Below are positions 6,339 to 18,100 of a DNA stretch of 64,000 nucleotides, one piece after another; position 1 is the first letter of the stretch, and each line of letters begins with the position of its first letter. The notes beneath the pieces were generated by a model. The model was not told the origin of the DNA. It did not search any database and saw nothing but the letters and a program-made list of their open reading frames with translations. Source of the DNA: Opitutaceae bacterium (GTDB taxonomy: Bacteria; Verrucomicrobiota; Verrucomicrobiia; Opitutales; Opitutaceae); the NCBI GenBank assembly GCA_018402455.1, contig JAGYIG010000001.1:148164-212163 (forward strand), written 5' to 3'. The translations under genes and the position numbers were made by a program.

Positions 6339-6554
6339 GAAAGGGCGGAAGCTCGCGACGGGGGTGGGGAAATTGAGCGAAATCGGGAGCGGACAGCAGC
6401 GTCCGACCCCGGACCTTAGGGCAAACGATCGGGGAGGGGAACGCATTTATGCGGGTCGGAATCATCCCCTGCCGGGATGAGCGGGGCTTTGCCTTGTGGT
6501 TTGGCGGCACTTGTCGGAGAGTGGCGCCGATCCTCGATTTTCCCGTTTACCGCC

Positions 6555-8057
6555 ATGCCTGTTGTTTCAAAAAAATCGTCGGCCCGGGCCCCACGCCGAC
6601 GCGTCGAACCTGAACTCATTTTCGGTGACCTTTGGGAGTTTGATCCCGCGCCGGAATCGGCCGATCCCAAGCTGCGGGCGAGCTACGGACTCTTTATAGG
6701 GGGCAAGTTCGTCGCGCCCCAAAGTGGCCGCACGTTCACCTCGATCAATCCGGGCACGGGTCAGCCGTTGGCGGAGATTGCGCTCGCGGGTTCGGCGGAG
6801 GTGGACGCCGCCTACCGGGCAGCGACCAAGGCTTTTTCGCCCTGGGCCCGACTCCCGGGGGCCGAGCGGGGGAAATACCTCTACCGCATTGCCCGCATCC
6901 TGCAGGACCGGGCTCGTGAATTTGCCGTGGCCGAGACCCTCGATGGGGGCAAGCCGATCAAGGAATCCCGCGACTTCGACGTGCCCATGGCGGCGGCGCA
7001 TTTTTTCTACCATGCCGGCTGGGCGGATAAATTGGCCTACGTGTTTCCCGGCGCCACGCCGCAACCGCATGGGGTGGTGGGTCAGGTCATCCCCTGGAAT
7101 TTTCCTTTGTTGATGCTGGCGTGGAAGATCGCGCCTGCGCTGGCGACCGGTAACACCGTCGTGCTCAAGCCCGCCGAGACCACCTCGATCACCGCCCTGA
7201 AATTCGCCGAAGTGCTACAGGAGGCGGGCCTGCCGGCCGGGGTGGTCAATATCGTGACCGGCGCGGGGGAAACGGGGGCGGCGGTGGTGAACCACCCCGC
7301 GGCGGCGAAGGTTGCATTCACCGGGTCCACCGAGGTGGGCAAACGGATCATGCGCTCCACGGCCGGCACCGGCAAAAAGCTCACCCTCGAACTCGGAGGC
7401 AAGGCGGCCAATATCGTCTTCGAAGACGCCCCGTTGGATCAGGCGGTTGAGGGCATCGTGAATGGGATTTTCTTCAATCAAGGCCACGTCTGCTGCGCGG
7501 GTTCGCGCCTGCTGGTGCAGGAAAGCATCGCCGCGGGCGTGCTGCAGCGGCTGCGCCACCGGGTGCAGGTCCTGCGGGTGGGCAACCCGATGGATAAGAA
7601 CACCGATATCGGGGCGATCAATTCGCGGGAGCAGTTGGACCGGATTACGGCGCTGGTGAAGGCGGGCGTGGCGGAAGGCGCGGAGATGTTTCAGCCTCCG
7701 ATCGCCCTGCCCCGGCAGGGCTACTATTTCCGTCCGACCCTGTTCAGCGGGGTGGAGCAGAGCCACCGCATCGCCCGGGAGGAGATCTTTGGTCCCGTGC
7801 TCTCCATCCTCACCTTCCGCACGGTCGCCGAGGCCGTCGAGAAGGCCAACAACACCGCCTACGGTCTGAGTGCCGGGGTGTGGACCGAGAAGGGCTCGCG
7901 CATTCTCAAGCTGAGCACGGAGCTGAAGGCGGGCGTCATTTGGGCCAACACCTTCAACAAATTTGATCCCACGTCACCGTTTGGTGGATACAAAGAATCC
8001 GGCTTCGGCCGGGAAGGCGGCAAACAGGGCCTCGCCGACTACGTCAAACTCACCTGA
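6555..8057 (+). CDS. NAD-dependent aldehyde dehydrogenase (deoC-associated, full length)
   Basis: IPWNFP, LKPAE, FTGSTEVG, LELGGK, FFNQGHVCCAGSR, EEIFGPV, FGGYKESGFGREGG. Confidence 0.93.
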   Translation: MPVVSKKSSARAPRRRVEPELIFGDLWEFDPAPESADPKLRASYGLFIGGKFVAPQSGRTFTSINPGTGQPLAEIALAGSAEVDAAYRAATKAFSPWARLPGAERGKYLYRIARILQDRAREFAVAETLDGGKPIKESRDFDVPMAAAHFFYHAGWADKLAYVFPGATPQPHGVVGQVIPWNFPLLMLAWKIAPALATGNTVVLKPAETTSITALKFAEVLQEAGLPAGVVNIVTGAGETGAAVVNHPAAAKVAFTGSTEVGKRIMRSTAGTGKKLTLELGGKAANIVFEDAPLDQAVEGIVNGIFFNQGHVCCAGSRLLVQESIAAGVLQRLRHRVQVLRVGNPMDKNTDIGAINSREQLDRITALVKAGVAEGAEMFQPPIALPRQGYYFRPTLFSGVEQSHRIAREEIFGPVLSILTFRTVAEAVEKANNTAYGLSAGVWTEKGSRILKLSTELKAGVIWANTFNKFDPTSPFGGYKESGFGREGGKQGLADYVKLT

Positions 8058-8082
8058 GGCGGAGCCACTCCGCCGCGTTTTT
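8058..8082 (+). terminator. Intrinsic-terminator-like hairpin after the ALDH gene
   Basis: GGCGGAG-CCA-CTCCGCC followed by GCGTTTTT. Confidence 0.5.
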
Positions 8083-8083
8083 G

Positions 8084-8535
8084 AACCACGAATGGACACG
8101 AATAAACCCGAATTAGAGAATGACCTGTTACACGGTGATTTGGTGTATCGTGTCGTGGGCTGTTGTTTTGAAGTGATGAAGGAGATGGGGCATGGATTGC
8201 ATGAAAAGCCTTATGAAAATGCCTTGGTCATTGCTTTTGATGATGCCGGGTTGCCGGTTAATCAGCAGCAGATTTACCCCATCACTTTCAGGGAGCAAAA
8301 AGTGGGAGAGTATATCCCTGATCACATCGTTGATAGTGCGATCGTGGTGGACACCAAGGTAGTGGATAGGATTGGCGACCACGAACGCGGGCAGATGCTC
8401 AACTATCTCCGCATCACCGGCCTCTGGGTCGGCTTAATCGTAAATTTCAAACACGCCAAACTAGAGTGGCAGCGTGTTGTTCTATAACCTGATTTACCTG
8501 AGTTGATTTGAGTAAATTCGTGTCCATTCGTGGTT
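8084..8535. mobile_element. Putative mobile cassette: 20-bp inverted repeats bracketing a GxxExxY gene
   Basis: AACCACGAATGGACACGAAT at 8084-8103 and its exact reverse complement at 8516-8535, both with outer T/A tracts; interior visibly lower in GC than its neighbours. Confidence 0.6.
8092..8487 (+). CDS. GxxExxY protein (PD-(D/E)XK nuclease superfamily)
   Basis: GHGLHEKPYENAL (GxxExxY), YIPD..VVDTK, GQMLNYL, GLIVNF; 131 aa; the ATG lies inside the left inverted repeat. Confidence 0.9.
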   Translation: MDTNKPELENDLLHGDLVYRVVGCCFEVMKEMGHGLHEKPYENALVIAFDDAGLPVNQQQIYPITFREQKVGEYIPDHIVDSAIVVDTKVVDRIGDHERGQMLNYLRITGLWVGLIVNFKHAKLEWQRVVL

Positions 8536-8547
8536 AAAAAGAAACTC

Positions 8548-9420
8548 ATGCCTAGACTGACTATTTCCAAGACGCCCAAGTGTTATGTCGGGGGTAAGTT
8601 CATTCGCTCCGAGAGTGGGCGCACGTTTCCGTTGCACGATGCGACCGGCGCCTTCTTCGCGCACGTGCCGCAATGCACGCGCAAGGATGTGCGCAACGCC
8701 GTCGAAGTTGCCGCCCGGGCTGGCGCCGGCTGGGCGGCCCGTTCCGCCTACAACCGGGGGCAGATCCTCTACCGTCTCGCCGAGATGCTCGAGCCGCGGA
8801 CCAAAGAGCTCGTCGAGGCCTTGAAGTTGAACGGCCTGCCCTCCGCCGCGGCGAAGGCCGAGGTGGTGGCCACCATCGACCGCGTGGTGCACTACGCCGG
8901 ATGGGCCGACAAGTATGAGCAGCTGCTGGGCAACGTGAACCCGGTGGCCTCCCCGCATTTCAACTTCACCGTCACCGAGCCCATGGGGGTGATTGGTATC
9001 GTGGCGCCGGATGACTCGCCTTTGCTGGGCCTGCTCACCTGCATCCTGCCGGCCATCACGGCGGGCAACAGTGTCGTGGTCATCACGGCCGAGACCGCGC
9101 CCTATCCGGCCATCGCCTTGGGCGAGATGTTGGCGACGAGTGATCTGCCCGGCGGGGTGGTGAACCTGCTCACCGGTTTCCGCCAGGAGATGGTGCCGAC
9201 CCTCGCCACGCATGCGCACCTGAGGGCCATCGGGGGCGTGGTCGATTCCGCCGACCGCAAGATCCTCGAAATCGGCGCGGCGGAAAGTGTGAAACGGGTC
9301 AAGGTGCTCAACGCGGTGCCCCCGCTCGATTGGTATGCCGGCGACGGCCCTCAAGCCTCGCTCTACGCCATTCAGGATTTTTTGGAATACAAGACCACCT
9401 GGCACCCGGTGGGCGCCTAG
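8548..9420 (+). CDS. Truncated aldehyde-dehydrogenase-family protein (NAD-binding and oligomerisation parts only)
   Basis: KTPKCYVGGKFIRSESG, YAGWADK, EPMGVIGI, LPGGVVNLLTG, EYKTTWHP; lacks ELGGK, the catalytic Cys segment and EEIFGP; 290 aa. Confidence 0.85.
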   Translation: MPRLTISKTPKCYVGGKFIRSESGRTFPLHDATGAFFAHVPQCTRKDVRNAVEVAARAGAGWAARSAYNRGQILYRLAEMLEPRTKELVEALKLNGLPSAAAKAEVVATIDRVVHYAGWADKYEQLLGNVNPVASPHFNFTVTEPMGVIGIVAPDDSPLLGLLTCILPAITAGNSVVVITAETAPYPAIALGEMLATSDLPGGVVNLLTGFRQEMVPTLATHAHLRAIGGVVDSADRKILEIGAAESVKRVKVLNAVPPLDWYAGDGPQASLYAIQDFLEYKTTWHPVGA

Positions 9421-9462
9421 GCTTCGCGGGTGAGGCGGCAGTCTTACCGTCGCGTCGCGGTG

Positions 9463-10323
9463 CTAGCCGTAGAACAGCGTCGACCAGCGCCCCTGTTCGA
9501 TCATCTCGGCTTTGACGGCCTCCCAGACTTCGAGGGTGCCGGCAGCATCGGTGAACACTTGGTCGAGGTCCTCTTCCAGCCGGGACAGCCCGGAAATATA
9601 GACGTGAGTCTTGGGGTCTTGGATCAGGTCCCACGCCTCGGCGGCGTTGTCCGCGATGGTGGAGGAGATATCAACCGGCACGTCGAAGTGCGGGCGCGGG
9701 CTGAGCGCCTCAAACGCCTTGAACGTGGCCTCGTCGTAGTAGGTCGCGAGGTCACCGTTCTTGTCGTTGAGGTAGAGCAAGTCCATGCCGGTCTTGGCGC
9801 CGTAAAAGAGACGGATCTTACCCTGCCATTCCTGACGGTCCTCGTAGATGTGTTTGAGGAAGGCGCGGAACGGGGCGATGCCGGTGCCGACACCGATCAT
9901 GAGCAGATTGCAGGTGGGGTCCCGGGGCGGCATGAAGTGCCGTCCGTAGGGACCGGTCATCCGGATTTGGTCGCCGGGTCGGGCATCGCAAAGGTGATGG
10001 GAGACCACCCCGGGGTGCCGTTCGCCACTGATGTCATCAATGAGGAAGCACCGGCGCACGCAGAGGGAAATCTCGGCGGCATCCTCGGCTTCTCCCCGGC
10101 GGGAGCTGGCGATCGAGTAGAGGCGCAGGTAGTTCTCGTTGCCAAAAACGGGCGGCGCCTCGACGAGCACGCCGACGCTCTGGCCTTCGATGAATTGGAA
10201 TGACGGATGATGGATGCGCAGGTTGATGTGGCGGACCTCATCGGTGTTTTCGTCGGTGATCCTTTCGGACTTCGTGACGGTCGCGGTGAAAGGGTTGCTG
10301 ATGTCGTATTCGGTGAGTTTCAT
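9463..10323 (-). CDS. Ferredoxin-NADP+ reductase (plant-type FNR fold)
   Basis: RLYSIASS, SLCVRR, GVVSHHLC, MTGPYG, GTGIAPFRAFL, LFYGAK, YISG. Confidence 0.88.
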   Translation of the reverse strand: MKLTEYDISNPFTATVTKSERITDENTDEVRHINLRIHHPSFQFIEGQSVGVLVEAPPVFGNENYLRLYSIASSRRGEAEDAAEISLCVRRCFLIDDISGERHPGVVSHHLCDARPGDQIRMTGPYGRHFMPPRDPTCNLLMIGVGTGIAPFRAFLKHIYEDRQEWQGKIRLFYGAKTGMDLLYLNDKNGDLATYYDEATFKAFEALSPRPHFDVPVDISSTIADNAAEAWDLIQDPKTHVYISGLSRLEEDLDQVFTDAAGTLEVWEAVKAEMIEQGRWSTLFYG

Positions 10324-10568
10324 AACAGGTCTTTCTCGGTCGAGGCGGAGGTTTGAGGGGAGGATTTAAAGGCTTTGAGCAGTTTCTTTTTCGGGCACTG
10401 GTTGGTGTCGCGGCACAGGCAGATCAGGCTGCAGCCGCCGCCCTCCTCGCGGGCGGGCCCCAGCTCGGCGTGGCGCGCGGCGAAGCGGCGGGCGGCCTGC
10501 TGCACCAGGATCCAGCCCAGCAGGGCCAGGAAGATCAGGGCGATGGCAATGAGGGTGTTGAGGATCAT
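10320..10568 (-). CDS. Small single-TM protein with Cys cluster
   Basis: 82 aa; N-terminal TM, GGGCSLICLCRDTNQC; stop overlaps the FNR start (ATGA); starts 4 nt after the rnfA stop. Confidence 0.65.
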   Translation of the reverse strand: MILNTLIAIALIFLALLGWILVQQAARRFAARHAELGPAREEGGGCSLICLCRDTNQCPKKKLLKAFKSSPQTSASTEKDLL

Positions 10569-10572
10569 GGCA

Positions 10573-11154
10573 TTAACCTCCCAATCCGGCGAAGCCCATG
10601 AAGGTGAGGGACAGCAGTCCGGCGATCATCAGGCTGAGAGCAGCCTGGGTGACGGTGTCGGGCACGTCGGCGAGTTCGAGTTTCTCGCGCAGCCCGGCCA
10701 TGAGGACGAGGGCGAGGGTGAAGCCGGCGCCGGCGCCGAGGCTGAAGGCGAGGCACTGGGTGAAGTCGTATTCCCGGTTCGTCTGAAACAGCGCGAGACC
10801 GAGGATGGCGCAATTGGTGGTGATCAACGGCAGGAAGATGCCGAGGGTCCGGAACAGGGCCGGGCTGAATTTTTTGACAAACATCTCCACCAGTTGCACC
10901 GCCGAGGCGATGACCGCGATGTAGCTGATCAGACGCAGGAACTCCAAGTCGAAGCGCACCAGCAGGTGGTTGATGCCGAAGGCGCAAACCGAGCTCACGA
11001 GCATGACAAAGATGACGGCCAGGCCCATGTTCCAGGCGGTCTTCACCTTGCCGGAAACGCCGAGGAACGGGCACAGCCCGAGGAACATCGCCAGGACGAA
11101 ATTATTGATCAAAAACGCGTTGAGGAAAATGAAGGCGTGGGAGTCAGGCGACAT
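10573..11154 (-). CDS. rnfA: Rnf complex subunit A
   Basis: NNFVLAMFLGLCPFLGVS, LGIFLPLITTNCAILG, GLREKL, SLTFMGFAGL. Confidence 0.93.
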   Translation of the reverse strand: MSPDSHAFIFLNAFLINNFVLAMFLGLCPFLGVSGKVKTAWNMGLAVIFVMLVSSVCAFGINHLLVRFDLEFLRLISYIAVIASAVQLVEMFVKKFSPALFRTLGIFLPLITTNCAILGLALFQTNREYDFTQCLAFSLGAGAGFTLALVLMAGLREKLELADVPDTVTQAALSLMIAGLLSLTFMGFAGLGG

Positions 11155-11794
11155 GGGATTCCTCCGGTTTGGCCGCGGTGCGGCGTTTGCGAATCAGCGC
11201 GAACAGGAACAGCCAACCGGCCAGGGCGAAGAAGCCGCCCGGAGGCAGGGCAAAGACGGCCCACGGCTGGAAGCTCGCCCCAAAAAGCTCGAAGCCGAAC
11301 AGGGAGCCGAAGCCCAGAACCTCGCGCACCACGCCGAGGCAGAGCAGGGCGAGGGTGAAGCCCACGCCCATGCCCAGCGCGTTGACGAATGCGTTGGTCA
11401 CCGGGTTCTTCGAGGCATAGGACTCGGCCCGGCCGAGAATCACGCAATTGACCACGATCAACTGAATGAACGCCCCGAGCGCGCGGTGCAGGTCCAGACT
11501 GATGGCCTGGATCGCGTAGTCCACGATCGTGACAAACGTGGCGATGATGATGATGTAGCAGGCGATCCGCACCTGCTTGGGAATGATCTTGCGTAACAAC
11601 GAAACCAATACGCCGGAGCAGAGCAGGACAAAGGTGGTGGCCAGGCCCATGGCGAGGGCGTTGGTGGCGGTGTTGGTCACCGCCAGCACGGGGCACAGGC
11701 CGAGCAACATGACAAAGACCGGGTTTTCCTTCCAGACCCCCTGGGTGAAGGTCGCGAGGGAGAGGGTCTCGGGGGCGCGGGGATCGGTGGCCAT
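11144..11794 (-). CDS. rnfE: Rnf complex subunit E
   Basis: WKENPVFVMLLGLCPVLAVT, FIQLIVVNCVILGRAE, VREVLGFG, PPGGFF. Confidence 0.93.
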   Translation of the reverse strand: MATDPRAPETLSLATFTQGVWKENPVFVMLLGLCPVLAVTNTATNALAMGLATTFVLLCSGVLVSLLRKIIPKQVRIACYIIIIATFVTIVDYAIQAISLDLHRALGAFIQLIVVNCVILGRAESYASKNPVTNAFVNALGMGVGFTLALLCLGVVREVLGFGSLFGFELFGASFQPWAVFALPPGGFFALAGWLFLFALIRKRRTAAKPEESHVA

Positions 11795-12489
11795 TACTCG
11801 TCTCCTTTCCGGGGGGTTAACAGGTGTTGATTGGCGATCAGGGTGGGCAGCATGGCTTGCGCGCTGGTGTTGAGGGCGTTGCCGACCGCGGCGGAGGTGA
11901 TGGTGGCGCCGGAGATGCCATCGATTTCCCAAGCGTTCACCTTGCGACCATTTTTGACCGTGGTGATGGGGTGGGCCAGCGCATCACCGGCGGCGTTGAG
12001 GCTCGCATCGAGTGGGTTGAAGTTCTCTTGGAAGGCGTCGTCGCTCTCGACCTTGTCGCCGATGCCCGGGGTCTCGGAGCTCTGCAAGACGGTGAAGCCG
12101 AGGATGCCCTGTTGAGCGGGATCGTAGGCGTAGAGAATGCGCACCACGTCCTGGTAGCCCCGGGCGGATCCCTCCATGGCGACCCCGACCAGCTGATGGT
12201 CGGCATCGTAGCCGGCGAAGACGTTGGCCTCGGCAAACTGCTCGGCGGGGAGGGGCGTGAGGGCATTTCCCTCGAGTCGGAAATTGGCGTGGGCCGTCGC
12301 GGTGGGGAGCACCTGAAAGATGGCGCGTTCCAGGGCGGCCTGCTGGTTCTTTTTGATGACCGGGGCGGTGACCTGGTAGGTGACGGCCACCAACAGTCCC
12401 GAGATCACGGCGATGGCGGCGAGCGCGGTGATCAGTTTGCGGCTGCTGGGCAGGGCCGGAGCCGGGGGGGGAGGGAAGGCGTCGCTCAT
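11794..12489 (-). CDS. rnfG: Rnf complex subunit G (FMN-binding)
   Basis: N-terminal TM, GYQDVVRIL, ETPGIG, DGISGATITS flavinylation motif. Confidence 0.9.
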   Translation of the reverse strand: MSDAFPPPPAPALPSSRKLITALAAIAVISGLLVAVTYQVTAPVIKKNQQAALERAIFQVLPTATAHANFRLEGNALTPLPAEQFAEANVFAGYDADHQLVGVAMEGSARGYQDVVRILYAYDPAQQGILGFTVLQSSETPGIGDKVESDDAFQENFNPLDASLNAAGDALAHPITTVKNGRKVNAWEIDGISGATITSAAVGNALNTSAQAMLPTLIANQHLLTPRKGDE

Positions 12490-13541
12490 GCGGCGCCTTT
12501 CTTTTTGGGCGCTCCGTAGCGCCGCGGTTGGGTCAGACTGCTGATGAGCGGGGAGCAAGCGTTGGCCAGCAGGATGGCATACATGATCCCTTCGCTGAGT
12601 CCGCCGAACAGCCGAATGATGATGGTGATGAAACCGATCAATCCCCCGTAGATCCACACCCCGAGGGGCGTCACCGGGGACGCCACCATATCAGTGGCCA
12701 TGAAGACCGCGCCGAGCATCAGCCCGCCGGAGCAGAGCATGAAGAGGGGGCCGGGATACTTGTCCCCGTCGATGAGGTAAAAGACCAGGGTGGTGAGGGC
12801 GGCCACGACGAGCACGCTGATCGTCACCCGCACCTCCATCATGCGGCGATAGACGAGGTAGGCGCCGCACAGGAGAATGAGCAAGGCGGAGGTTTCGCCG
12901 GCGGAACCGGCGGTTGAACCCAACAACAGTTGCAGGGAGTCGGTCGGGACCTGTTCGAACTTCATCAACGCCAGCGGGGTCGCGCCGGAAAAGCCGTCGG
13001 GGGCCACGACCTCCAGCCACGGCTGGATCGATTCGGGCCGCAGGAAGGGCAGGGTGAACGTCGAGGGGATGAACGAGGTGAAGCGGTCGGGCGCCAGAAT
13101 GGGCACCCATGTGGTCATCGGCGCGGTGAACGCGGCTTGGGCGAAGGCCCGCCCGATCAGGGCCGGGTTCATGACGTTGTAGCCGAGGCCGCCGAAGAAC
13201 AGCTTGCCGAGTCCGACCCCCGCGACGGAGGCGACCATGGCCATCCACAGGGGAAATCCCGGCGGCAGGGTGAGGGCGAGGAGCAGGCCAGTGATGGTCA
13301 CACTCCAATCGTTGACCGTGGTCGGCCGGTGCGACCAGCGGCAGACCAGATGTTCGACCGCGATACACGTGCCCACGCAGACCAGCACGAGCGCGAGCAC
13401 ACTGATCCCGAACTGGTAGATCGAGAACGCGACGATCGGGAGCAGCGCATAGACGACGTTGCGCATGATCACGTCGACCGTGGGGGTTTCGCGCAGGTGC
13501 GGTGAAGTCCGCAATACGACGTGGTGTCCGGTGGTGCTCAT
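12486..13541 (-). CDS. rnfD: Rnf complex subunit D
   Basis: TSPH, KLFFGGLGYNVMNPALIGR, DGFSGATPL flavinylation motif, GSAGETSA, GAVFMATD. Confidence 0.93.
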   Translation of the reverse strand: MSTTGHHVVLRTSPHLRETPTVDVIMRNVVYALLPIVAFSIYQFGISVLALVLVCVGTCIAVEHLVCRWSHRPTTVNDWSVTITGLLLALTLPPGFPLWMAMVASVAGVGLGKLFFGGLGYNVMNPALIGRAFAQAAFTAPMTTWVPILAPDRFTSFIPSTFTLPFLRPESIQPWLEVVAPDGFSGATPLALMKFEQVPTDSLQLLLGSTAGSAGETSALLILLCGAYLVYRRMMEVRVTISVLVVAALTTLVFYLIDGDKYPGPLFMLCSGGLMLGAVFMATDMVASPVTPLGVWIYGGLIGFITIIIRLFGGLSEGIMYAILLANACSPLISSLTQPRRYGAPKKKGAA

Positions 13542-14911
13542 GAGGCGGCGGCCCTTTCTCGCGCGGCTTGTTCGCGCAGACTGGATTTGGCGATGCGGAA
13601 GTATTGCACCAGCGGGATGCCGCTGGGGCAGACGTAGCTGCAGCAGCCGCACTCAAAACAGTCCATCAAGTGGAAGTCGCCCTGCATCTCCTCGTAGCGG
13701 TGCTTGTGGGCGAGCTTGCCGAGCTGGGAGGGGTTGAGGTGCATCGGACACGCGGCCACGCACTGGGCGCAACTGATGCACGGGTAGCTCACGGCGTCCC
13801 GCTGCTGCTGCTCGAGGATCTGCTCTGTCAACACCAGCAGTCCGCCCGAACCCTTGGTCATGGGCACGGCCAGTGACGCCACCGAGCCGCCCATCATGGG
13901 CCCGCCCATGATCAGGCAATTGGAGGTGCCGGTGAAACCGAGTTGTTTAAGAATGAAGCCAACGGGGGTGCCGATCGGCACGAGGTAGTTGCCCGGTTTT
14001 TCGATGCCCGGTCCGGTCACGGTCACGACGCGTTCGATGACCCCGCGGCTGTGCGGAAACAGGGCTCCGAGCTCGGCGGTGGACGCGACGTTGAACACGC
14101 CGAGACCGACGGATGACGGGAAATTGCCGGAGGGGATTTCGACGCCCATCAGGGCCTTGGCCAACATCTTCTCGGCGCCTTGCGGATACTTGGTGGGCAC
14201 GGCCTGCACGGAGATCGGGCCGTCGGTCGGCAGGTGGGCCTGAATCGCGGCCACGGCGTCCATTTTGTTCTCCTCCGTGCCGATAATCGCGCGCTCCGCG
14301 CCCAGCGCCTTCATCAGGATCTTGGTGCCGCGGATCAGGTCCTCCGGATACTCCAACATCACGCGATGATCGGTGGTGAGAAACGGTTCACACTCGCAGC
14401 CATTGATCAGCACGGTGTGGACGTGGTGGCCTTGCGGGGGCGAGAGCTTCACGTGGGTGGGAAAGGCGGCGCCGCCGAGGCCGACCAGTCCCGTGTCCTG
14501 CACCGCTTGGACGATGGCCTTAGGCTCCATCGTGGTGTAGTCGCGGGGGGCGTCGTAGCGCACCTCCTGGCTGTCGCCGGGATAGACCTCGAGGAGGATG
14601 GACGGCGTGCGCGGCCCCTTGGCGGTGGGCATCAGTTCGATGCGTTTGATGCGTCCGGTGGCGGGGGCATGCAACGGCACCGACATAAAACCGTTGGCCT
14701 TGGCAATGGGTTCGCCGCGCACGACCTCCTGACCGGGATGCACCAGCGACTCCGAGGGGGCCCCGAAGTGCTGCGACAGGGGCAGCACCAACTCCGGCGC
14801 GAACGGCAACCGACGGATCGGCAGGTGCGCGGTGAAGTGCTTGTTCTCCGCGGGATGAATCCCGTGGGAGAACGTGCCGCTCGGGCGCAGGAATTTCAGG
14901 AGATCGAACAC
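13538..14911 (-). CDS. rnfC: Rnf complex subunit C
   Basis: FSHGIHP, LPLSQHFGAP, GLVGLGGAAFPTHVK, INGCECEPFLTTD, CISCAQCVAACP, CFECGCCSYVCP. Confidence 0.94.
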   Translation of the reverse strand: MFDLLKFLRPSGTFSHGIHPAENKHFTAHLPIRRLPFAPELVLPLSQHFGAPSESLVHPGQEVVRGEPIAKANGFMSVPLHAPATGRIKRIELMPTAKGPRTPSILLEVYPGDSQEVRYDAPRDYTTMEPKAIVQAVQDTGLVGLGGAAFPTHVKLSPPQGHHVHTVLINGCECEPFLTTDHRVMLEYPEDLIRGTKILMKALGAERAIIGTEENKMDAVAAIQAHLPTDGPISVQAVPTKYPQGAEKMLAKALMGVEIPSGNFPSSVGLGVFNVASTAELGALFPHSRGVIERVVTVTGPGIEKPGNYLVPIGTPVGFILKQLGFTGTSNCLIMGGPMMGGSVASLAVPMTKGSGGLLVLTEQILEQQQRDAVSYPCISCAQCVAACPMHLNPSQLGKLAHKHRYEEMQGDFHLMDCFECGCCSYVCPSGIPLVQYFRIAKSSLREQAARERAAAS

Positions 14912-14942
14912 GATTTAGTTAGAGCCGAAAGGATGAAACGGG

Positions 14943-15128
14943 TTTGAACCACTGCCGAGCGAAGCGACACCCGCGGAACGGAGAGACAAGGCAATGGACA
15001 CGAATGGCTCCGCTACCGCTACGCGATGGAACGGCTGCCAGTTGAATTCTCTCTCTTGCAAGAACGCGGTGGAGTGGTTCAGCGCCGAACGGTAGTGAGG
15101 CATATTCGTGTCCATTCGTGGTTAAAAA
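14943..15128. repeat. Gene-less (MITE-like) copy of the GxxExxY inverted-repeat element
   Basis: ATTCGTGTCCATTCGTGGTT+AAAAA at 15104-15128 is identical to 8516-8540; the opposite arm is TTTGAACCAC (14943-14952) plus AATGGACACGAAT (14993-15005), split by a 40-nt insert. Confidence 0.75.
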
Positions 15129-15141
15129 ACAGCGCGGTTGG

Positions 15142-18100
15142 TTACTGGAATTTTTCCGCGCGCTTGATGAGCTTGGCGGCGTCCTTTTCGTGGGGGTCGG
15201 CGGGGGTGCCGGGGTGGATGCATTTGCCGGTGCACTTTTCCGCCGCGCGAACGATGTCCTTGAACGGTCCGCCCTTCGGATCCTTTACGAACGCCTTCTT
15301 GTCGCTGTCGTAGGCAAAGATCTTCGGGTTGATGTTGGTGCATTCGTCGCAGGCGGTGCACTCGCTTTGGTCGATCCAAGCGGGTTCGAACCCGGCGGCC
15401 GGAGCCGCGGGGGCCGTCGCCGGGGCCGCGCCGTTGGCAGGAGCGGCTTCCAGCAGGGGAGTCACGCCACCATCGCCAGCCAGCATGGCCATGAGCCCTT
15501 GCGCCAGTTTCTGGGCGGTTTCACTGCGAACCTGTTGGGCGATTTGTTCGGGGTCGACCTTGCCGGTGAGACCGGCGAGACCGCGGAGCGTCCGCCAGTA
15601 GTCGCGGCGTTCCTCGGTGGAGCGCACGATTTCCTGAGCGACCAGCACGCGAACGAGATGGTTCTGCTTGTTCACCGACCAGATGTAGGGGAACCGGCCT
15701 TCGCGATCGTCGGCCGCGAGGTCGATGAATTCGGCGAGGGGCAGCATATTGTCGTTCCAGGTGTCGGGCGGAGCGACGCGGAAGTGCTTGCGGAAGCGGC
15801 CTTCCTGCACCGCGAAGTCGGCGAACGTCATCGGGATCTCCATCTGCTGGGGCGTGCCGTCCTCGTCGAGATAGCTGAGCTGGTAGCTGGGCCAGTCCTC
15901 ATCGATGGCGGGATTGCCCTCCAGCTCGATGCACTCGGCCCACGACTCGCCGGCATCGGGATCGAAGCGGAAGAGCGGATAGGCGCGCGATTCGGTGGCC
16001 ATCTTGCTGCGGAAGGCGGTGGAGTCGTCCGGCACCCCGTGTTCGGGCTGACACACCGCGTAGATGCTGAACAGGGCGGGGCGACGGGAGTTGATGCCGT
16101 CGATGTAGCCCTCGATCAGGTGGGTGACGTTGGCTAGGCTGCCCTGCATGATGAAGGCGGTGCGGTGGGCGGCACCGATGAGCGCCATCTCCTTGCGGGT
16201 CTCGGTCTTGCCCTTCCACGCCTTGCCGTAGGGGGCCATGTCGGAGACCTGACCGATGAAGCCCGAGGTGCAGGCCTGACCCCCGGTGTTGGAATACACC
16301 TGCGTATCCATCACGAAGATCTTGATCGGGCGCCCGGTCATGAGCGCGCGGGAGACGTTCTGGAAGCCGATGTCGAACATGGCGCCGTCGCCGCCGACCG
16401 CGACCACCGGTGGGCTGAGCAGGTATTCCTCGTCCGTGAAGCTTTCCCAATTGAAAACCTCGAGCGATTTTTGGATCGCGCGGAAATCGGTGTCGCCCGC
16501 GATTTCGGCCTCGGCCATGCGGATGGCTTTGAAGCCATCGGCCATTTTGCGCATGTGGCCCTCAAAGATACCGAGGGACACCGAAGCGGCGTCCTGGAAC
16601 AGGTGGTTGGACCACGGGAACGGATATGGATTGTAGGGGAACGAGCCGCCGTAGATGGACGAACACCCGGTGGCGTTCATGAAGCCCAGATGGGCGCGGC
16701 CGGTGTGGGTGATGCCCTCTTCGTAGCGCCATTTGAGGTCCTTCAACTGCGCGAGCAGGTCACTCATCCAAGTGAGCCATTCCTGATCGAGCGGGGTGCC
16801 GGCCTTGCCCTCGTCGAGGGCTCCGGCGAGGTCGGACAGCTTGAGGTCACGATCGCCGCTGCGGCCGAGCACGGCCTTGAGGGCGGACGGATCGCTCACA
16901 TCAAACGTATCGGCCAGCTTGGCCTTCAGGTGGGTCTCGAGTTTGGCGATCAAGGTCCCGAGATATTCGACGTGGGTTTTCACGCGCCGCTGCATCAGCG
17001 CGGTGATCGTGCTGGTGAAGAGGTGCAGGACGGATTTTTCGCCGCAACCGGTGCAGGCGCCGTCGCCGCAGCTGATGGACGAGTAGACCGATTTGTCCAT
17101 GAGCATGGTCTCGAGGGCACCGATCTTTTCGTCGATGTCGTCGATCCGCATGAAGTCCTTGGTCGTGGTCGGCAGGTCCAGCCAGTAGTCCCATTCCTTT
17201 TCCAGCTTCGCGACCGATTGGGGCGTTTGCGGGATGGTGGTAAGGGCGTTGTCATCGCAGACATCCACGCAGAGCATGCAACCCTTGCAGGTGTAGGGAT
17301 TGATGGTGATGGCGTAGAGCCCGCCGGCTCCGGCCGCGACCTTCTCGCGTTGGTCGAAGTAAGGTTTGGTGAAGGCGAATTTGAATTCCCCCATCTCCTC
17401 GCGGAACCATTCGAATTCCTGAATCAAGGTGGCCTGATCGGCGCTGGTTTCGGCGATGGTATCGGAGATCGCGTCCACCAGCAGCGGGCCGACATCGAGG
17501 CTCGGGCCCGAGCGGTTGCCGTTCACGCCATGGGCGGCGGCGCGGAGTTTCTTTTCCACCGTGCGCACGGCCTTGGGTAGCAAGGTGACCTCGTGGCCGG
17601 CCTTTTTGACCCGCTTGATGGTGGCCTCGAAGGCGGCGGAGACCGAGCAAGCCAGACCGGGAATGGCGCTGTCGGGGCAGACCGTGAAGCACTCGCTGCA
17701 GGCCGTGCATTTGGACGGATCCCACACCGGGTGGTTGAACCGGATCTGGGTCATGTTCCGATACAGTCCGGTGTTGGCCGGGATGAGCCCCATGGCGGCA
17801 AACGGATCGGTGATGTGATCGTTGGGCTTGCCGCCCAGATAGAAGCTGCCGGTCTGTTCCCAGAACCGGTGCGTGTCCGTCATGGCATCGTCGCTCTGGG
17901 CGATGCGCTTGAGCATGAGCGGCAGGTTGGTGCGCTGTTTGGGCGAAGCGGCGACGGGGGCGCTGATCGCCATGTTTTCCAGCTTCACGATCTCGTCGAA
18001 CCCGCGTCGCACGACGCGGATGTTGTCCTCGACCACGCGGGCGCCCTTGCTGCCGAATTTTTTCTCAATCTGGTCGTGGATCGCCTTGAAGAGGCTCTCC

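What the first reader, a model, noticed from the sequence alone, without database searches (positions are those of the whole stretch)
8078..8540. GxxExxY nuclease cassette bounded by perfect 20-bp inverted repeats: candidate minimal mobile element
Seen: AACCACGAATGGACACGAAT (8084-8103) and its exact reverse complement (8516-8535), each with an outer T5/A5 tract, enclose only a 131-aa GxxExxY gene that is visibly lower in GC. The left repeat supplies the start codon (MDTN). The unit lies just after a terminator-like hairpin, 26 nt after one stop codon and 12 nt before the next start, so no ORF is broken. Established: GxxExxY proteins are PD-(D/E)XK-fold proteins of unknown function. Inference: a ~450-bp selfish element mobilised by a nuclease that is neither DDE nor HUH. 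In mRNA the repeats would form a 20-bp stem looping out the gene, like rRNA intervening sequences cut by RNase III, which could keep the host operon functional.
Basis: partly seen in the sequence, partly recalled or inferred. Interest (0 to 1): 0.82.

Follow-up and report, generated by a model that had tools for sequence, protein, structure and literature searches.

The report
Repeat-armed GxxExxY nuclease gene cassette
A small nuclease gene of unknown function, wedged between two aldehyde-dehydrogenase genes of an Opitutaceae bacterium, is the gene-carrying copy of a family of hairpin repeats scattered through the genome; this points to a nuclease-and-repeat partnership that I could not find described for this protein family.

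Summary

**What it is.** The 131-aa gene is a compact RecB/Cas4/lambda-exonuclease-like PD-(D/E)XK nuclease with an intact active site, under strong purifying selection. Its two arms each carry three CACGAAT units spaced 10 nt apart. The same arms bound about 20 gene-less foldbacks of roughly 90-135 bp in intergenic spacers of this genome.

**Genus-wide (17 genomes).**
- 56 of 67 GxxExxY genes have such arms, against 0 of 52 neighbouring genes.
- The CACNNAT repeat family is abundant only where this cassette is present. Its dominant variant (GAAT, GGAT or AGAT) matches the cassette's own arms in 7 of 9 genomes, with one further tie.
- Arms are better conserved than the gene.

**Not a fresh insertion.** The cassette has sat in the DeoC-ALDH1-ALDH2 operon across Opitutaceae. 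It occupies either of two spacers, and other cassettes or foldbacks replace it at the same boundaries. I found no target duplication and no sign of self-transposition.

**RNA-stem idea.** It gets no support: arm mismatches show no G-U bias and cluster in the spacers between units.

**Closest analogues.** REPIN-RAYT and Ssn-NTS, which use different nuclease folds.

The scan has noted this architecture many times on other DNA.

The parts
6477..8057 (+). Upstream host gene ALDH1 (aldehyde dehydrogenase, 526 aa); context, not part of the element
   Evidence: PF00171, 542 bits. Orthologous flank in 19 relatives.
8058..8077 (+). Left spacer with a terminator-like hairpin GGCGGAG-CCA-CTCCGCC (8058-8074) plus GCG
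   Evidence: Found by the consensus scan. The hairpin is not conserved in relatives. The spacer is 76% identical to L104, like the flanking gene and unlike the cassette.
8078..8113 (+). Left arm: T5 run, G, then three units 10 nt apart. These are CACGAAT at 8087-8093, CACGAAT at 8097-8103 and CCCGAAT at 8107-8113. The arm contains the perfect 20-mer 8084-8103 and the start codon at 8092.
   Evidence: The T run precedes the arm in 9 of 10 complete gene-less copies. The arm is 89-94% identical to relatives L105 and L106, whose gene is only 73% identical.
8092..8487 (+). GxxExxY / PDDEXK_3 gene, 131 aa. Motifs: G35xxE38xxY41, P76-D77, D87-T-K89, Q101xxxY105.
   Evidence: Family matches. Motif conservation. 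AlphaFold2 pLDDT 90.9. Best PDB fold matches are lambda exonuclease, LHK-Exo, Cas4 SSO0001 and Hjc. dN/dS 0.03-0.14.
8506..8540 (-). Right arm, the inverted copy of the left arm. Units are ATTCGTG at 8516-8522 and 8526-8532, plus a degenerate third unit at 8506-8512. It contains the perfect 20-mer 8516-8535 and the A5 run 8536-8540.
   Evidence: The A run follows the arm in 9 of 10 gene-less copies.
8548..9420 (+). Downstream host gene ALDH2, a short (290 aa) ALDH-family protein; context, not part of the element
   Evidence: PF00171 positions 9-233 of 461. The 287-290 aa length is conserved in relatives.
14993..15129 (-). Gene-less foldback of the same repeat family, lying between an rnfC-like gene and the pyruvate:ferredoxin oxidoreductase gene. 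The full arm is at 15104-15123 plus an A run. The partner arm at 14993-15005 is truncated. Inner arms are GGCTCCGCTACCGCTACGC and its complement.
   Evidence: Folds as a hairpin, z = -3.1. The orthologous spacer is only 33 nt in G005 and holds a degenerate copy in G011.

Best explanation
The feature is the resident, gene-bearing 'master' copy of a foldback-repeat family.

**Shown.** A compact RecB/Cas4/lambda-exo-like PD-(D/E)XK nuclease gene lies between two inverted arms. Each arm has a T run followed by three CACGAAT units one helical turn apart. Gene-less elements with the same arms are scattered in intercistronic spacers.

**Inferred mechanism.**
1. Several protomers of the nuclease recognise the phased units, either on duplex DNA or on the folded-back single strand.
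2. The nuclease cuts at or near the arm boundary (T run | AACCAC).
3. Host replication or repair completes the event. PD-(D/E)XK nucleases characterised so far are hydrolases that form no covalent DNA intermediate (background knowledge, not tested here).
4. Gene-less foldbacks are thereby copied or maintained in trans, in the manner of REPIN-RAYT.
5. The gene-bearing copy itself almost never moves. It stays in one operon, occasionally shifts to the neighbouring spacer, or is swapped as a whole between lineages, probably through its conserved arms.

It is tolerated because it lands between cistrons and breaks no gene.
For: **Arms are specific to this gene family.** 56 of 67 genus GxxExxY genes have flanking inverted repeats scoring at least 12. 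None of 52 neighbouring ORFs and none of 67 shuffles do.

**Arms are built from units.** Units are spaced 9-10 nt apart in 67 of 79 cases. Arm-to-arm mismatches run at 8.0% inside units against 20.8% in spacers, p = 2e-8.

**Genome-level co-variation**, counting the AACCACnnATGGACACnnAT family:
- 13-195 copies in 10 of the 11 genus genomes with a cassette at this site.
- 0, 0, 0, 1, 8 and 9 copies in the six genomes without one.
- The commonest variant equals the cassette's own arms in 7 of 9 genomes; an eighth (G006) is a 96-to-95 tie.

The ACAGRAG family behaves the same way. Genomes with the cognate gene have 6-141 copies. Genomes without have 0-37. G000 has neither gene nor repeat.

**Co-decay.** G016's copy has lost D87 and Y105, its arms are degenerate, and the genome has 1 repeat copy. 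G012's site-0 gene has lost the same acid and also has degenerate arms.

**Arms outlast the gene.** The arm sequence is essentially identical in cassettes whose proteins are 66-73% identical to this one. Against L105 and L106 the arms are 89-91% identical and the gene 73%.

**Master and derivative in one genome.** In L112, an 87-nt gene-less foldback in DeoC|ALDH1 has 30-nt arms identical to those of the cassette 1.5 kb away, including a lineage-specific TTC spacer.

**The unit moves or is exchanged.**
- It occupies two alternative spacers of one operon.
- Flank and cassette trees conflict.
- G000 against L104: ALDH1 is 77.7% identical (dS 1.45) while the cassette is 96.1% identical (dS 0.12). 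The break falls at the arm.

**The protein is functional.** Catalytic residues are kept in 67-70 of 70 genus proteins and dN/dS is 0.03-0.14.

**Arm geometry depends on the cargo family.** Units are 9-10 nt apart for GxxExxY and 7 nt apart for four-helix-bundle cassettes. This argues that each protein reads its own arms.

**Clade-specific units across phyla.** Relatives of the C13-type protein in other phyla carry CACNGAG units on both sides in 8 of 25 loci, against 1 for the opposite-sense control.
Against: - No biochemical evidence exists that the protein binds or cuts the arms.
- No target duplication, excision scar or circle was seen.
- Gene-bearing cassettes are largely syntenic in the genus, and the highest identity between different sites is 75%. 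Movement is therefore rare or ancient.
- The CACAGAG repeat type does not track its gene. Genomes with the gene have 8, 41 and 31 copies; genomes without have 0-101.
- G010 has 37 ACAGRAG copies and no cognate gene.
- PD-(D/E)XK hydrolases are not known to carry out strand transfer (background knowledge).
- Four-helix-bundle genes, which have no nuclease fold, sit in the same kind of cassette with their own dispersed arrays. A nuclease is therefore not required for this architecture.
- The genomes compared are related, so the counts are not independent.
- The L104 discordance rests on one metagenome contig that ends in the right arm. It could be a chimeric join at the repeat.
Confidence: 0.45

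Rival explanations
1. An Ssn-like, host-serving nuclease. The protein is a site-specific, possibly single-strand-specific, nuclease that cuts at its cognate repeats. Its role would be to modulate recombination, incoming DNA or replication-associated hairpins. The repeats would spread by other means, and the gene sits between two of them as ssnA sits between NTS repeats.
For: - The architecture is that described for Ssn: a small single-domain nuclease gene flanked on both sides by its own dispersed hairpin repeats (PMC11893778).
- The gene is a long-term vertical resident under strong purifying selection.
- There is a single gene copy per arm type.
- Gene-less copies sit in intercistronic spacers.
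Against: - The fold is different: PD-(D/E)XK, not GIY-YIG.
- The repeat variant tracks the cassette's arms from genome to genome, and a foldback with identical arms lies next to the cassette in L112. This suggests that repeats are generated from the cassette rather than merely being cut.
- Persistently low GC and lineage-discordant exchange look more like a selfish element than a domesticated one.
- PADLOC gives no hit.
Confidence: 0.2
2. One reading: an autonomous ~450-bp transposon that recently inserted here and is cut out and pasted by its own nuclease acting as the transposase.
For: - Terminal inverted repeats with multiple phased sites, as at transposon ends.
- Presence/absence polymorphism and a second site in the same operon.
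- GC 8-17 points below the host.
- The cassette is 96% identical between genomes whose flank is 78% identical.
Against: - The cassette is old at this site: it is present in 11 of 19 relatives and across genera.
- It is as conserved as its flanks within the species (98.5%).
- No target duplication was found.
- There are never several gene-bearing copies of one arm type in a genome.
- PD-(D/E)XK hydrolases form no covalent intermediate for strand transfer (background knowledge).
Confidence: 0.15
3. An RNA-level element. In the operon transcript the arms pair, and the stem is cut (RNase III-like). This releases the small gene's mRNA and separates the host cistrons, as with rRNA intervening sequences.
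For: - The predicted RNA fold contains the 20-bp terminal stem (z = -4.3).
- Insertions are always between cistrons and usually between co-directional genes.
- Genes of the 23S-IVS protein family (TIGR02436) occupy the same kind of cassette in this genome.
Against: - There is no excess of G-U over A-C mismatches between arms (37 against 50), and 79 further mismatches are non-wobble.
- Mismatches concentrate in the spacers between units, so continuous pairing is not what is conserved.
- The arm sequence itself is nearly invariant across hosts.
- Repetition of a unit within an arm has no use for a stem.
- There is no Rfam match.
Confidence: 0.07
4. No functional link. REP-like foldbacks are recombination-prone, and the gene merely happens to lie in the loop of one of them.
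For: - Spacers in these genomes collect arms of many types.
- The CACAGAG repeats do not track their gene.
Against: - 56 of 67 against 0 of 52.
- Arm types follow protein clades, even across phyla.
- Arm geometry follows the cargo family.
- Loss of the catalytic acid goes with decay of the arms.
Confidence: 0.05

Closest known systems
REPIN-RAYT systems (REP doublets with their REP-associated tyrosine transposase; Bertels & Rainey 2011, PMC3116915; Di Nocera et al. 2013, PMC3733652)
   Same: - One gene per repeat family, flanked by its own repeats in inverted orientation.
- Tens to hundreds of gene-less hairpin-forming copies in extragenic space, mostly between co-directional or convergent genes.
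- The gene is inherited vertically, and the repeat population depends on its presence.
   Different: - The protein is a PD-(D/E)XK (RecB/Cas4-like) hydrolase, not an HUH/Y1 transposase.
- The arms are arrays of three 7-mers spaced 9-10 nt apart with T/A runs, not a GTAG-tagged palindrome.
- The start codon lies inside the arm.
- The association failed for one of the three repeat types tested.
Ssn-NTS (small GIY-YIG single-strand-specific nucleases flanked by the repeats they cut; Chenal et al. 2025, PMC11893778)
   Same: - A small single-domain nuclease gene bracketed by its cognate dispersed hairpin repeats.
- Many enzyme/repeat pairs with co-varying specificity.
- An IS-like gene architecture without a classical transposase.
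   Different: - The nuclease superfamily is unrelated.
- The repeat design differs (phased units).
- Activity, substrate (ssDNA or dsDNA) and biological role are untested here.
Insertion sequences and their MITEs with multi-site terminal inverted repeats
   Same: - Terminal inverted repeats.
- Gene-less short derivatives sharing the ends of a gene-bearing element.
- Intergenic location.
   Different: - No DDE, HUH, serine or tyrosine transposase.
- No target-site duplication.
- A single, syntenic gene-bearing copy.
- Only about 460 bp in all.
23S rRNA intervening sequences carrying a four-helix-bundle ORF (TIGR02436 family)
   Same: - A small ORF in the loop of a long inverted repeat, inserted without destroying the host transcript's function.
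- Members of that ORF family sit in analogous cassettes in this same genome.
   Different: - This cassette is in an mRNA spacer, not in rRNA.
- Its cargo is a nuclease.
- Arm mismatches do not behave like an RNA stem.
- The unit period differs: 9-10 nt against 7 nt.
Free-standing homing endonuclease genes
   Same: - A nuclease gene between host genes.
- Presence/absence at one site among relatives.
- Gene history discordant with the flanks.
   Different: - It carries its own inverted arms and has numerous gene-less copies.
- The 'empty' alleles are usually filled by other elements.
- No recognised homing-endonuclease family matches.

Membership tests
GxxExxY protein family (TIGR04256 / Pfam PF13366 PDDEXK_3) | Profile match above the curated cut-off over the full length | tested here: met
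   TIGR04256: 119.2 bits (cut-off 35), profile positions 2-116 of 116. PF13366: 110 bits (cut-off 22).
GxxExxY protein family (TIGR04256 / Pfam PF13366 PDDEXK_3) | GxxExxY motif and PD-(D/E)XK catalytic residues | tested here: met
   G35-L-H-E38-K-P-Y41, P76-D77, D87-T-K89 and Q101xxxY105. Across 70 genus proteins: G35, E38 and K89 in 70; D77 in 69; D/E87 in 67; Q101 in 68; Y105 in 67.
GxxExxY protein family (TIGR04256 / Pfam PF13366 PDDEXK_3) | PD-(D/E)XK fold | tested here: met
   AlphaFold2 pLDDT 90.9, ordered as helix-helix, five strands, helix, two strands. Foldseek top hits are lambda exonuclease, LHK-Exo, Cas4 SSO0001, ACE1 and Hjc, with TM about 0.5 normalised to the query. No solved homologue by sequence.
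REPIN-RAYT | Dispersed hairpin-forming repeats, with the gene flanked by its own repeats in inverted orientation | tested here: met
REPIN-RAYT | The gene encodes an HUH / Y1 (IS200/IS605-like) transposase | tested here: not met
   PF13366 is the only Pfam match, and the fold is PD-(D/E)XK.
REPIN-RAYT | The repeat population depends on the presence of the cognate gene | tested here: inconclusive
   Holds for the CACNNAT family and the ACAGRAG family. Does not hold for CACAGAG. The genomes are related, so counts are not independent.
Ssn-NTS | GIY-YIG cd10448 nuclease | tested here: not met
   No GIY-YIG match; the protein is PD-(D/E)XK.
Ssn-NTS | The gene is flanked 5' and 3' by its cognate dispersed repeat | tested here: met
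Ssn-NTS | Sequence-specific cleavage of single-stranded DNA at the repeat | not testable with these tools
   Needs purified protein.
IS / MITE (TIR transposon) | Terminal inverted repeats shared by gene-bearing and gene-less members | tested here: met
IS / MITE (TIR transposon) | Target-site duplication | tested here: not met
   0 of 10 complete foldbacks have a direct repeat of 2 nt or more at their ends. The flanks are a T run and an A run that extend the palindrome.
IS / MITE (TIR transposon) | A recognised transposase family, and several near-identical autonomous copies | tested here: not met
   There is one gene per arm type per genome. Different sites share at most 75% protein identity.
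rRNA-type intervening sequence | Located in rRNA, with a stem processed by RNase III | tested here: not met
   The location is an mRNA spacer. A stem is predicted, but mismatch patterns do not fit an RNA stem.

The most novel reading that the evidence does not exclude
GxxExxY nucleases define a widespread, so far undescribed class of mobile element. A RecB/Cas4-like hydrolase reads phased 7-mer units in its own arms and drives seamless, duplication-free copying of gene-less foldbacks, and rarely of itself, into intercistronic spacers. Four-helix-bundle (23S-IVS-type) cassettes would be a sister design with a different reader protein. Together they would explain where rRNA intervening sequences and many 'REP-like' repeats outside the Proteobacteria come from.
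Probability: 0.25. Interest if true: 0.85.

Novelty: new variant of a known kind. Interest (0 to 1): 0.7.

Why it matters
PF13366 / TIGR04256 is a very large family. This one query found more than 5,700 relatives, and the genus carries 1-7 copies per genome. No function has been assigned: the 2012 PD-(D/E)XK survey lists it as 'Unknown', and only three papers in the searchable library mention the name.

The data give the family a concrete, testable job: each protein is paired with a short DNA unit that can be read off its own flanks. If that holds, three things follow.
- It would add a third nuclease fold, after HUH RAYTs and GIY-YIG Ssn, to the repeat-associated nuclease systems that shape bacterial intergenic space.
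- It would explain hundreds of foldback repeats per genome in Verrucomicrobiota and other phyla.
- It could supply a catalogue of small nucleases with predictable sequence specificities.

The family-specific arm geometry (9-10 nt against 7 nt) also links these cassettes to the unexplained origin of rRNA intervening sequences.

Tried and rejected
**Target duplication or empty-site definition**
- The ALDH1|ALDH2 spacers of sister genomes share no alignable sequence apart from the outer flanks: G012 against G004, and G015 against G003.
- The second junction (rnfC|PFOR) has a 33-nt empty spacer in G005, but it is too diverged to place the ends.
- Ten complete foldbacks show no direct repeat.

**RNA-stem signature.** I looked for an excess of G-U over A-C mismatches and found none.

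**Known RNA families.** No Rfam match in 7000-16000.

**Defence-system membership.** No PADLOC match.

**Solved homologues by sequence.** None.

**Passive insertion into a REP.** Rejected on the control counts and on the link between protein clade and arm type.

**G000 and G004 cassettes as vertical sisters.** Not rejected by the AU test (p = 0.11), so I do not claim a replacement for that pair.

**The upstream hairpin plus T run as part of the element.**
- The hairpin is specific to G000.
- The T run belongs to the arm consensus.

- The look-up of sequencing runs: no RNA or read-level evidence, and no check of the L104 contig.
- The fetch from genomes and the genome search: I could not align the roughly 130 copies in G002 to look for young, near-identical foldbacks.
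Full report
**1. The observation**

The sequence is as described.
- AACCACGAATGGACACGAAT lies at 8084-8103 and its exact reverse complement at 8516-8535.
- A T5 run (8078-8082) and an A5 run (8536-8540) lie outside them. The complementarity continues imperfectly to 35 nt per arm.
- Each arm is three 7-mers spaced 10 nt apart. In the left arm these are CACGAAT at 8087, CACGAAT at 8097 and CCCGAAT at 8107.
- The only gene inside is 8092-8487, 131 aa. It scores 119 bits on TIGR04256 GxxExxY and 110 bits on PF13366.
- Its ATG lies inside the left arm, so the first residues MDTNK are a translation of the repeat units.
- GC falls to 0.45-0.50 against 0.62-0.71 outside.
- The element fills the gap between an aldehyde dehydrogenase gene (stop at 8057) and a short ALDH-family gene (start at 8548). 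It breaks neither.
- The 20-mer is far from chance. It occurs 3 times in the window against 0 in shuffles, and 21 times in the genome with up to 3 mismatches against 0 for the reversed control.

**2. A dispersed repeat family**

The window lies in a 3.67-Mb, 100-contig Opitutaceae (Verrucomicrobiota) assembly. Named relatives of the protein come from Synoicihabitans, Cephaloticoccus and Lacunisphaera. Genome G010 is Actomonas aquatica.

- Most other copies of the 20-mer form inverted pairs 100-135 nt apart with no gene between them.
- One such copy is in the window at 14993-15129.
- They fold as hairpins with z between -2.5 and -5.3.
- All but a few weak, 3-mismatch matches lie between genes. 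Many fill the gap between co-directional genes, with their ends 7-26 nt from the ORFs.
- In ten complete copies, T precedes the arm in 9 and AAAA follows it in 9. None has a direct target duplication.

**3. All GxxExxY genes of the genus are built this way**

G000 has three GxxExxY genes, each with different arms:

| Location | Flanking host genes | Arm units |
|---|---|---|
| Window (C1) | ALDH1 and ALDH2 | CACGAAT |
| C13 | gatA and gatB | CACAGAG |
| C8 | gyrB and gyrA | GCGAAG / GCAAAG |

- In 17 genomes of the genus there are 70 such genes.
- 56 of 67 testable genes have flanking inverted repeats scoring at least 12. None of 52 neighbouring ORFs and none of 67 shuffles do.
- There are about ten arm types.
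- Units are 9-10 nt apart in 67 of 79 spacings.
- The two arms of a cassette disagree 2.6 times more often in the spacers between units than inside units (20.8% against 8.0%, p = 2e-8).
- Among mismatches there is no excess of G-U over A-C (37 against 50).

What is conserved is therefore a set of phased sequence units, not a continuous stem. That pattern fits recognition by a protein better than an RNA helix.

**4. The protein**

- AlphaFold2 gives a confident model (pLDDT 90.9).
- Its nearest solved folds are lambda exonuclease, LHK-Exo, Cas4 SSO0001, ACE1 and the Hjc resolvase.
- E38, P76-D77, D87-x-K89 and the RecB-family QxxxY motif (Q101, Y105) are present.
- These residues are kept in 67-70 of 70 genus proteins.
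- dN/dS is 0.03-0.14.
- There is no PADLOC hit and no solved homologue by sequence.
- The two full-length genes that have lost the D/E87 acid both have degenerate arms: G016 at this site, and G012 at another site.

**5. History at this site**

The ALDH1|ALDH2 junction was recovered in 19 relatives:

| Content of the junction | Genomes |
|---|---|
| Cassette of this family; arms vary as CACGAAT, CACGGAT or CACAGAT, always on both sides | 11 |
| Gene-less foldback of about 205-219 nt with other arms (ACAGAAG type), abutting the same flank bases | G005, G011, G003 |
| Spacer of 22-27 nt | G018, G008 |
| One-sided CTGAAAG arrays | G012, G015 |
| A transporter gene | G024 |

- On the flank tree, a well-supported clade of seven close relatives needs at least four changes of state.
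- Sister pairs differ: G012 is empty while G004 has a cassette, and G015 has an array while G003 has a foldback.
- The cassette proteins fall into two lineages that do not follow the flank tree. The flank clade G006+G009+G010+G002 is rejected for the cassette at p-AU 4.8e-5. I chose this group after seeing both trees.

Metagenome and MAG relatives add detail:
- Cassettes 71-96% identical in protein to this one lie at ALDH1|ALDH2 in L104, L105, L106 and L112.
- Cassettes 66-73% identical lie one spacer upstream, at DeoC|ALDH1, in L108, L110, L114 and L115.
- The arms are almost identical in all of them.
- In L112 the DeoC|ALDH1 spacer holds an 87-nt gene-less foldback. Its 30-nt arms are identical to those of the cassette 1.5 kb downstream, down to a lineage-specific TTC spacer.
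- Within the G000 species (L195, L197, L198) the cassette and its flanks are equally conserved, at 98-99%.

Against L104 the picture is different:
- ALDH1 is 77.7% identical (dS 1.45) and the left spacer 76%. The cassette is 96.1% identical (dS 0.12).
- The break falls at the T run / arm start.
- On the ALDH1 tree L104 is sister to G003, not to G000.

This looks like a recent transfer of the cassette as a unit. However, L104 is a metagenome contig that ends inside the right arm.

Overall the cassette is an old resident of this operon that is occasionally shifted, lost, replaced or exchanged. It is not a fresh insertion.

**6. Link between the gene and the dispersed repeats**

Counts of AACCACnnATGGACACnnAT with up to 1 mismatch, split by variant:

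| Genome | Cassette arms | GAAT | GGAT | AGAT |
|---|---|---|---|---|
| G000 | GAAT | 11 | 1 | 1 |
| G002 | GAAT | 130 | 21 | 1 |
| G013 | GAAT | 17 | 2 | 0 |
| G010 | GGAT | 19 | 88 | 16 |
| G006 | GGAT | 95 | 96 | 4 |
| G009 | GGAT | 30 | 34 | 13 |
| G001 | AGAT | 4 | 2 | 42 |
| G014 | AGAT | 65 | 8 | 105 |

- The six genomes with no cassette at this site have 0, 0, 0, 1, 8 and 9 copies in all.
- G016 has a catalytically damaged copy with decayed arms, and 1 repeat copy.
- A one-sided Mann-Whitney test gives p = 0.001, but the genomes are related, so this overstates the case.
- Within the close clade the contrast is 13 and 26 copies with a cassette against 9, 8, 1, 0 and 0 without.
- The ACAGRAG type behaves likewise: 6-141 copies with a cognate gene against 0-37 without.
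- The CACAGAG type does not: 8, 41 and 31 copies with the gene against 0-101 without.

So the association holds for two of the three families tested.

Across phyla, relatives of the C13-type protein (48-61% identical) carry CACNGAG units on both sides in 8 of 25 loci. The opposite-sense control gives 1.

**7. A second cargo family**

- Genes of the four-helix-bundle family TIGR02436, the family first known from 23S rRNA intervening sequences, number 5 in G000 and 81 in the genus.
- They are also flanked by inverted unit arrays (22 of 32 score at least 12) and have their own gene-less dispersed copies.
- Their units follow each other every 7 nt (24 of 29 spacings), against 9-10 nt for GxxExxY.
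- The CTGAAAG arrays at the 'empty' ALDH junctions of G012 and G015 are arm types of such cassettes. So is the AATTCGTAAATCGTAAATCC stretch in the right spacer of L105, L106 and G015.
- G002 has seven GxxExxY genes and no four-helix gene, so the two families are independent.

This cuts two ways. A nuclease is not required for the architecture. Yet arm geometry depends on which protein is encoded, which argues that each protein reads its own arms rather than a common host factor reading all of them.

**8. Reading**

The best-supported explanation (about 0.45) is a cognate nuclease-and-repeat partnership in the style of REPIN-RAYT or Ssn-NTS.
- The nuclease binds the phased units.
- It cuts at the arms.
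- Gene-less foldbacks are copied or maintained in trans.
- The gene-bearing copy stays put and only rarely moves or is swapped through its conserved arms.

The anatomy, the enrichment, the co-variation, the conservation of the arms and the turnover at the site are shown. Binding, cleavage and the mode of copying are inferred.

Rivals:
- an Ssn-like host-serving nuclease (0.2);
- an RNA-processing element (0.07);
- no functional link (0.05).

**9. What is known**

- The 2012 PD-(D/E)XK survey lists PDDEXK_3 as function unknown.
- 'GxxExxY' occurs in three papers of the library, none about this architecture.
- The nearest published systems are REPIN-RAYT (PMC3116915, PMC3733652) and Ssn-NTS (PMC11893778). 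Both use other nuclease folds.

Earlier notes of this scan describe the same architecture on many other genomes. Later checks there confirmed the framing but priced the selfish-element reading low, because no movement had been seen.

This window adds:
- genome-by-genome co-variation of the repeat variant with the cassette arms;
- arms better conserved than the gene;
- exchange and relocation within one operon;
- a master/derivative pair in one genome;
- cargo-specific arm geometry.

**Verdict.** The feature is real and is a new variant of a known kind. Interest 0.7.

Noticed in passing
G000 contigs C13:20166-20474, C23:10098-10415, C15:40671-40991, C1:25791-26102, C39:3702-4022 (outside the window): Five four-helix-bundle genes (TIGR02436, the 23S-IVS protein family) sit in the same kind of arm-bounded cassette. 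Their units repeat every 7 nt instead of every 9-10 nt, and each has its own dispersed gene-less arrays.
   Followed up: partly
window 8548-9420: The downstream 'ALDH' is a conserved 287-290-aa protein covering only the N-terminal half of the aldehyde dehydrogenase domain (profile positions 9-233 of 461). It is always next to the full-length ALDH in Opitutaceae relatives, so the element has not truncated it.
   Followed up: partly
G000 C13:25396-25831 and C8:27285-27762: The other two GxxExxY cassettes of this genome lie between gatA and gatB and between gyrB and gyrA. These are housekeeping gene pairs that are usually adjacent.
   Followed up: partly
ALDH1|ALDH2 spacers of G012, G015, L105, L106, L108 (loci L037, L039, L105, L106, L108): The same spacer holds solo or paired arms of at least five different cassette types in different relatives: CACNNAT, ACAGAAG, CACAGAG, CTGAAAG and TTACGA. 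All abut the same flank bases, as if the spacer were a recurrent landing or replacement site.
   Followed up: partly
L098 (G015:C34:8511-9399) and L103 (G005:C57:37959-38290): G015 has two GxxExxY cassettes in tandem. G005 has a frameshifted, decaying copy.
   Followed up: no
All 19 cassette loci compared: The cassette gene's GC is 8-17 points below its flanks in every host, although synonymous sites between hosts are saturated. The low GC is therefore maintained and is not a sign of recent arrival.
   Followed up: no
L235 (G006:C2:235535-235981), the rnfC|PFOR spacer: In G006 this spacer holds about four tandem copies of a GC-rich unit of about 75 nt that is unrelated to the foldbacks.
   Followed up: no
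G016, several contigs (listing): Pairs of identical TTACAGGAGGGAACAGAGGAGAG / ...GAA matches 139 nt apart, on the same strand, recur on at least seven contigs. This suggests a larger multi-copy element that carries these units.
   Followed up: no
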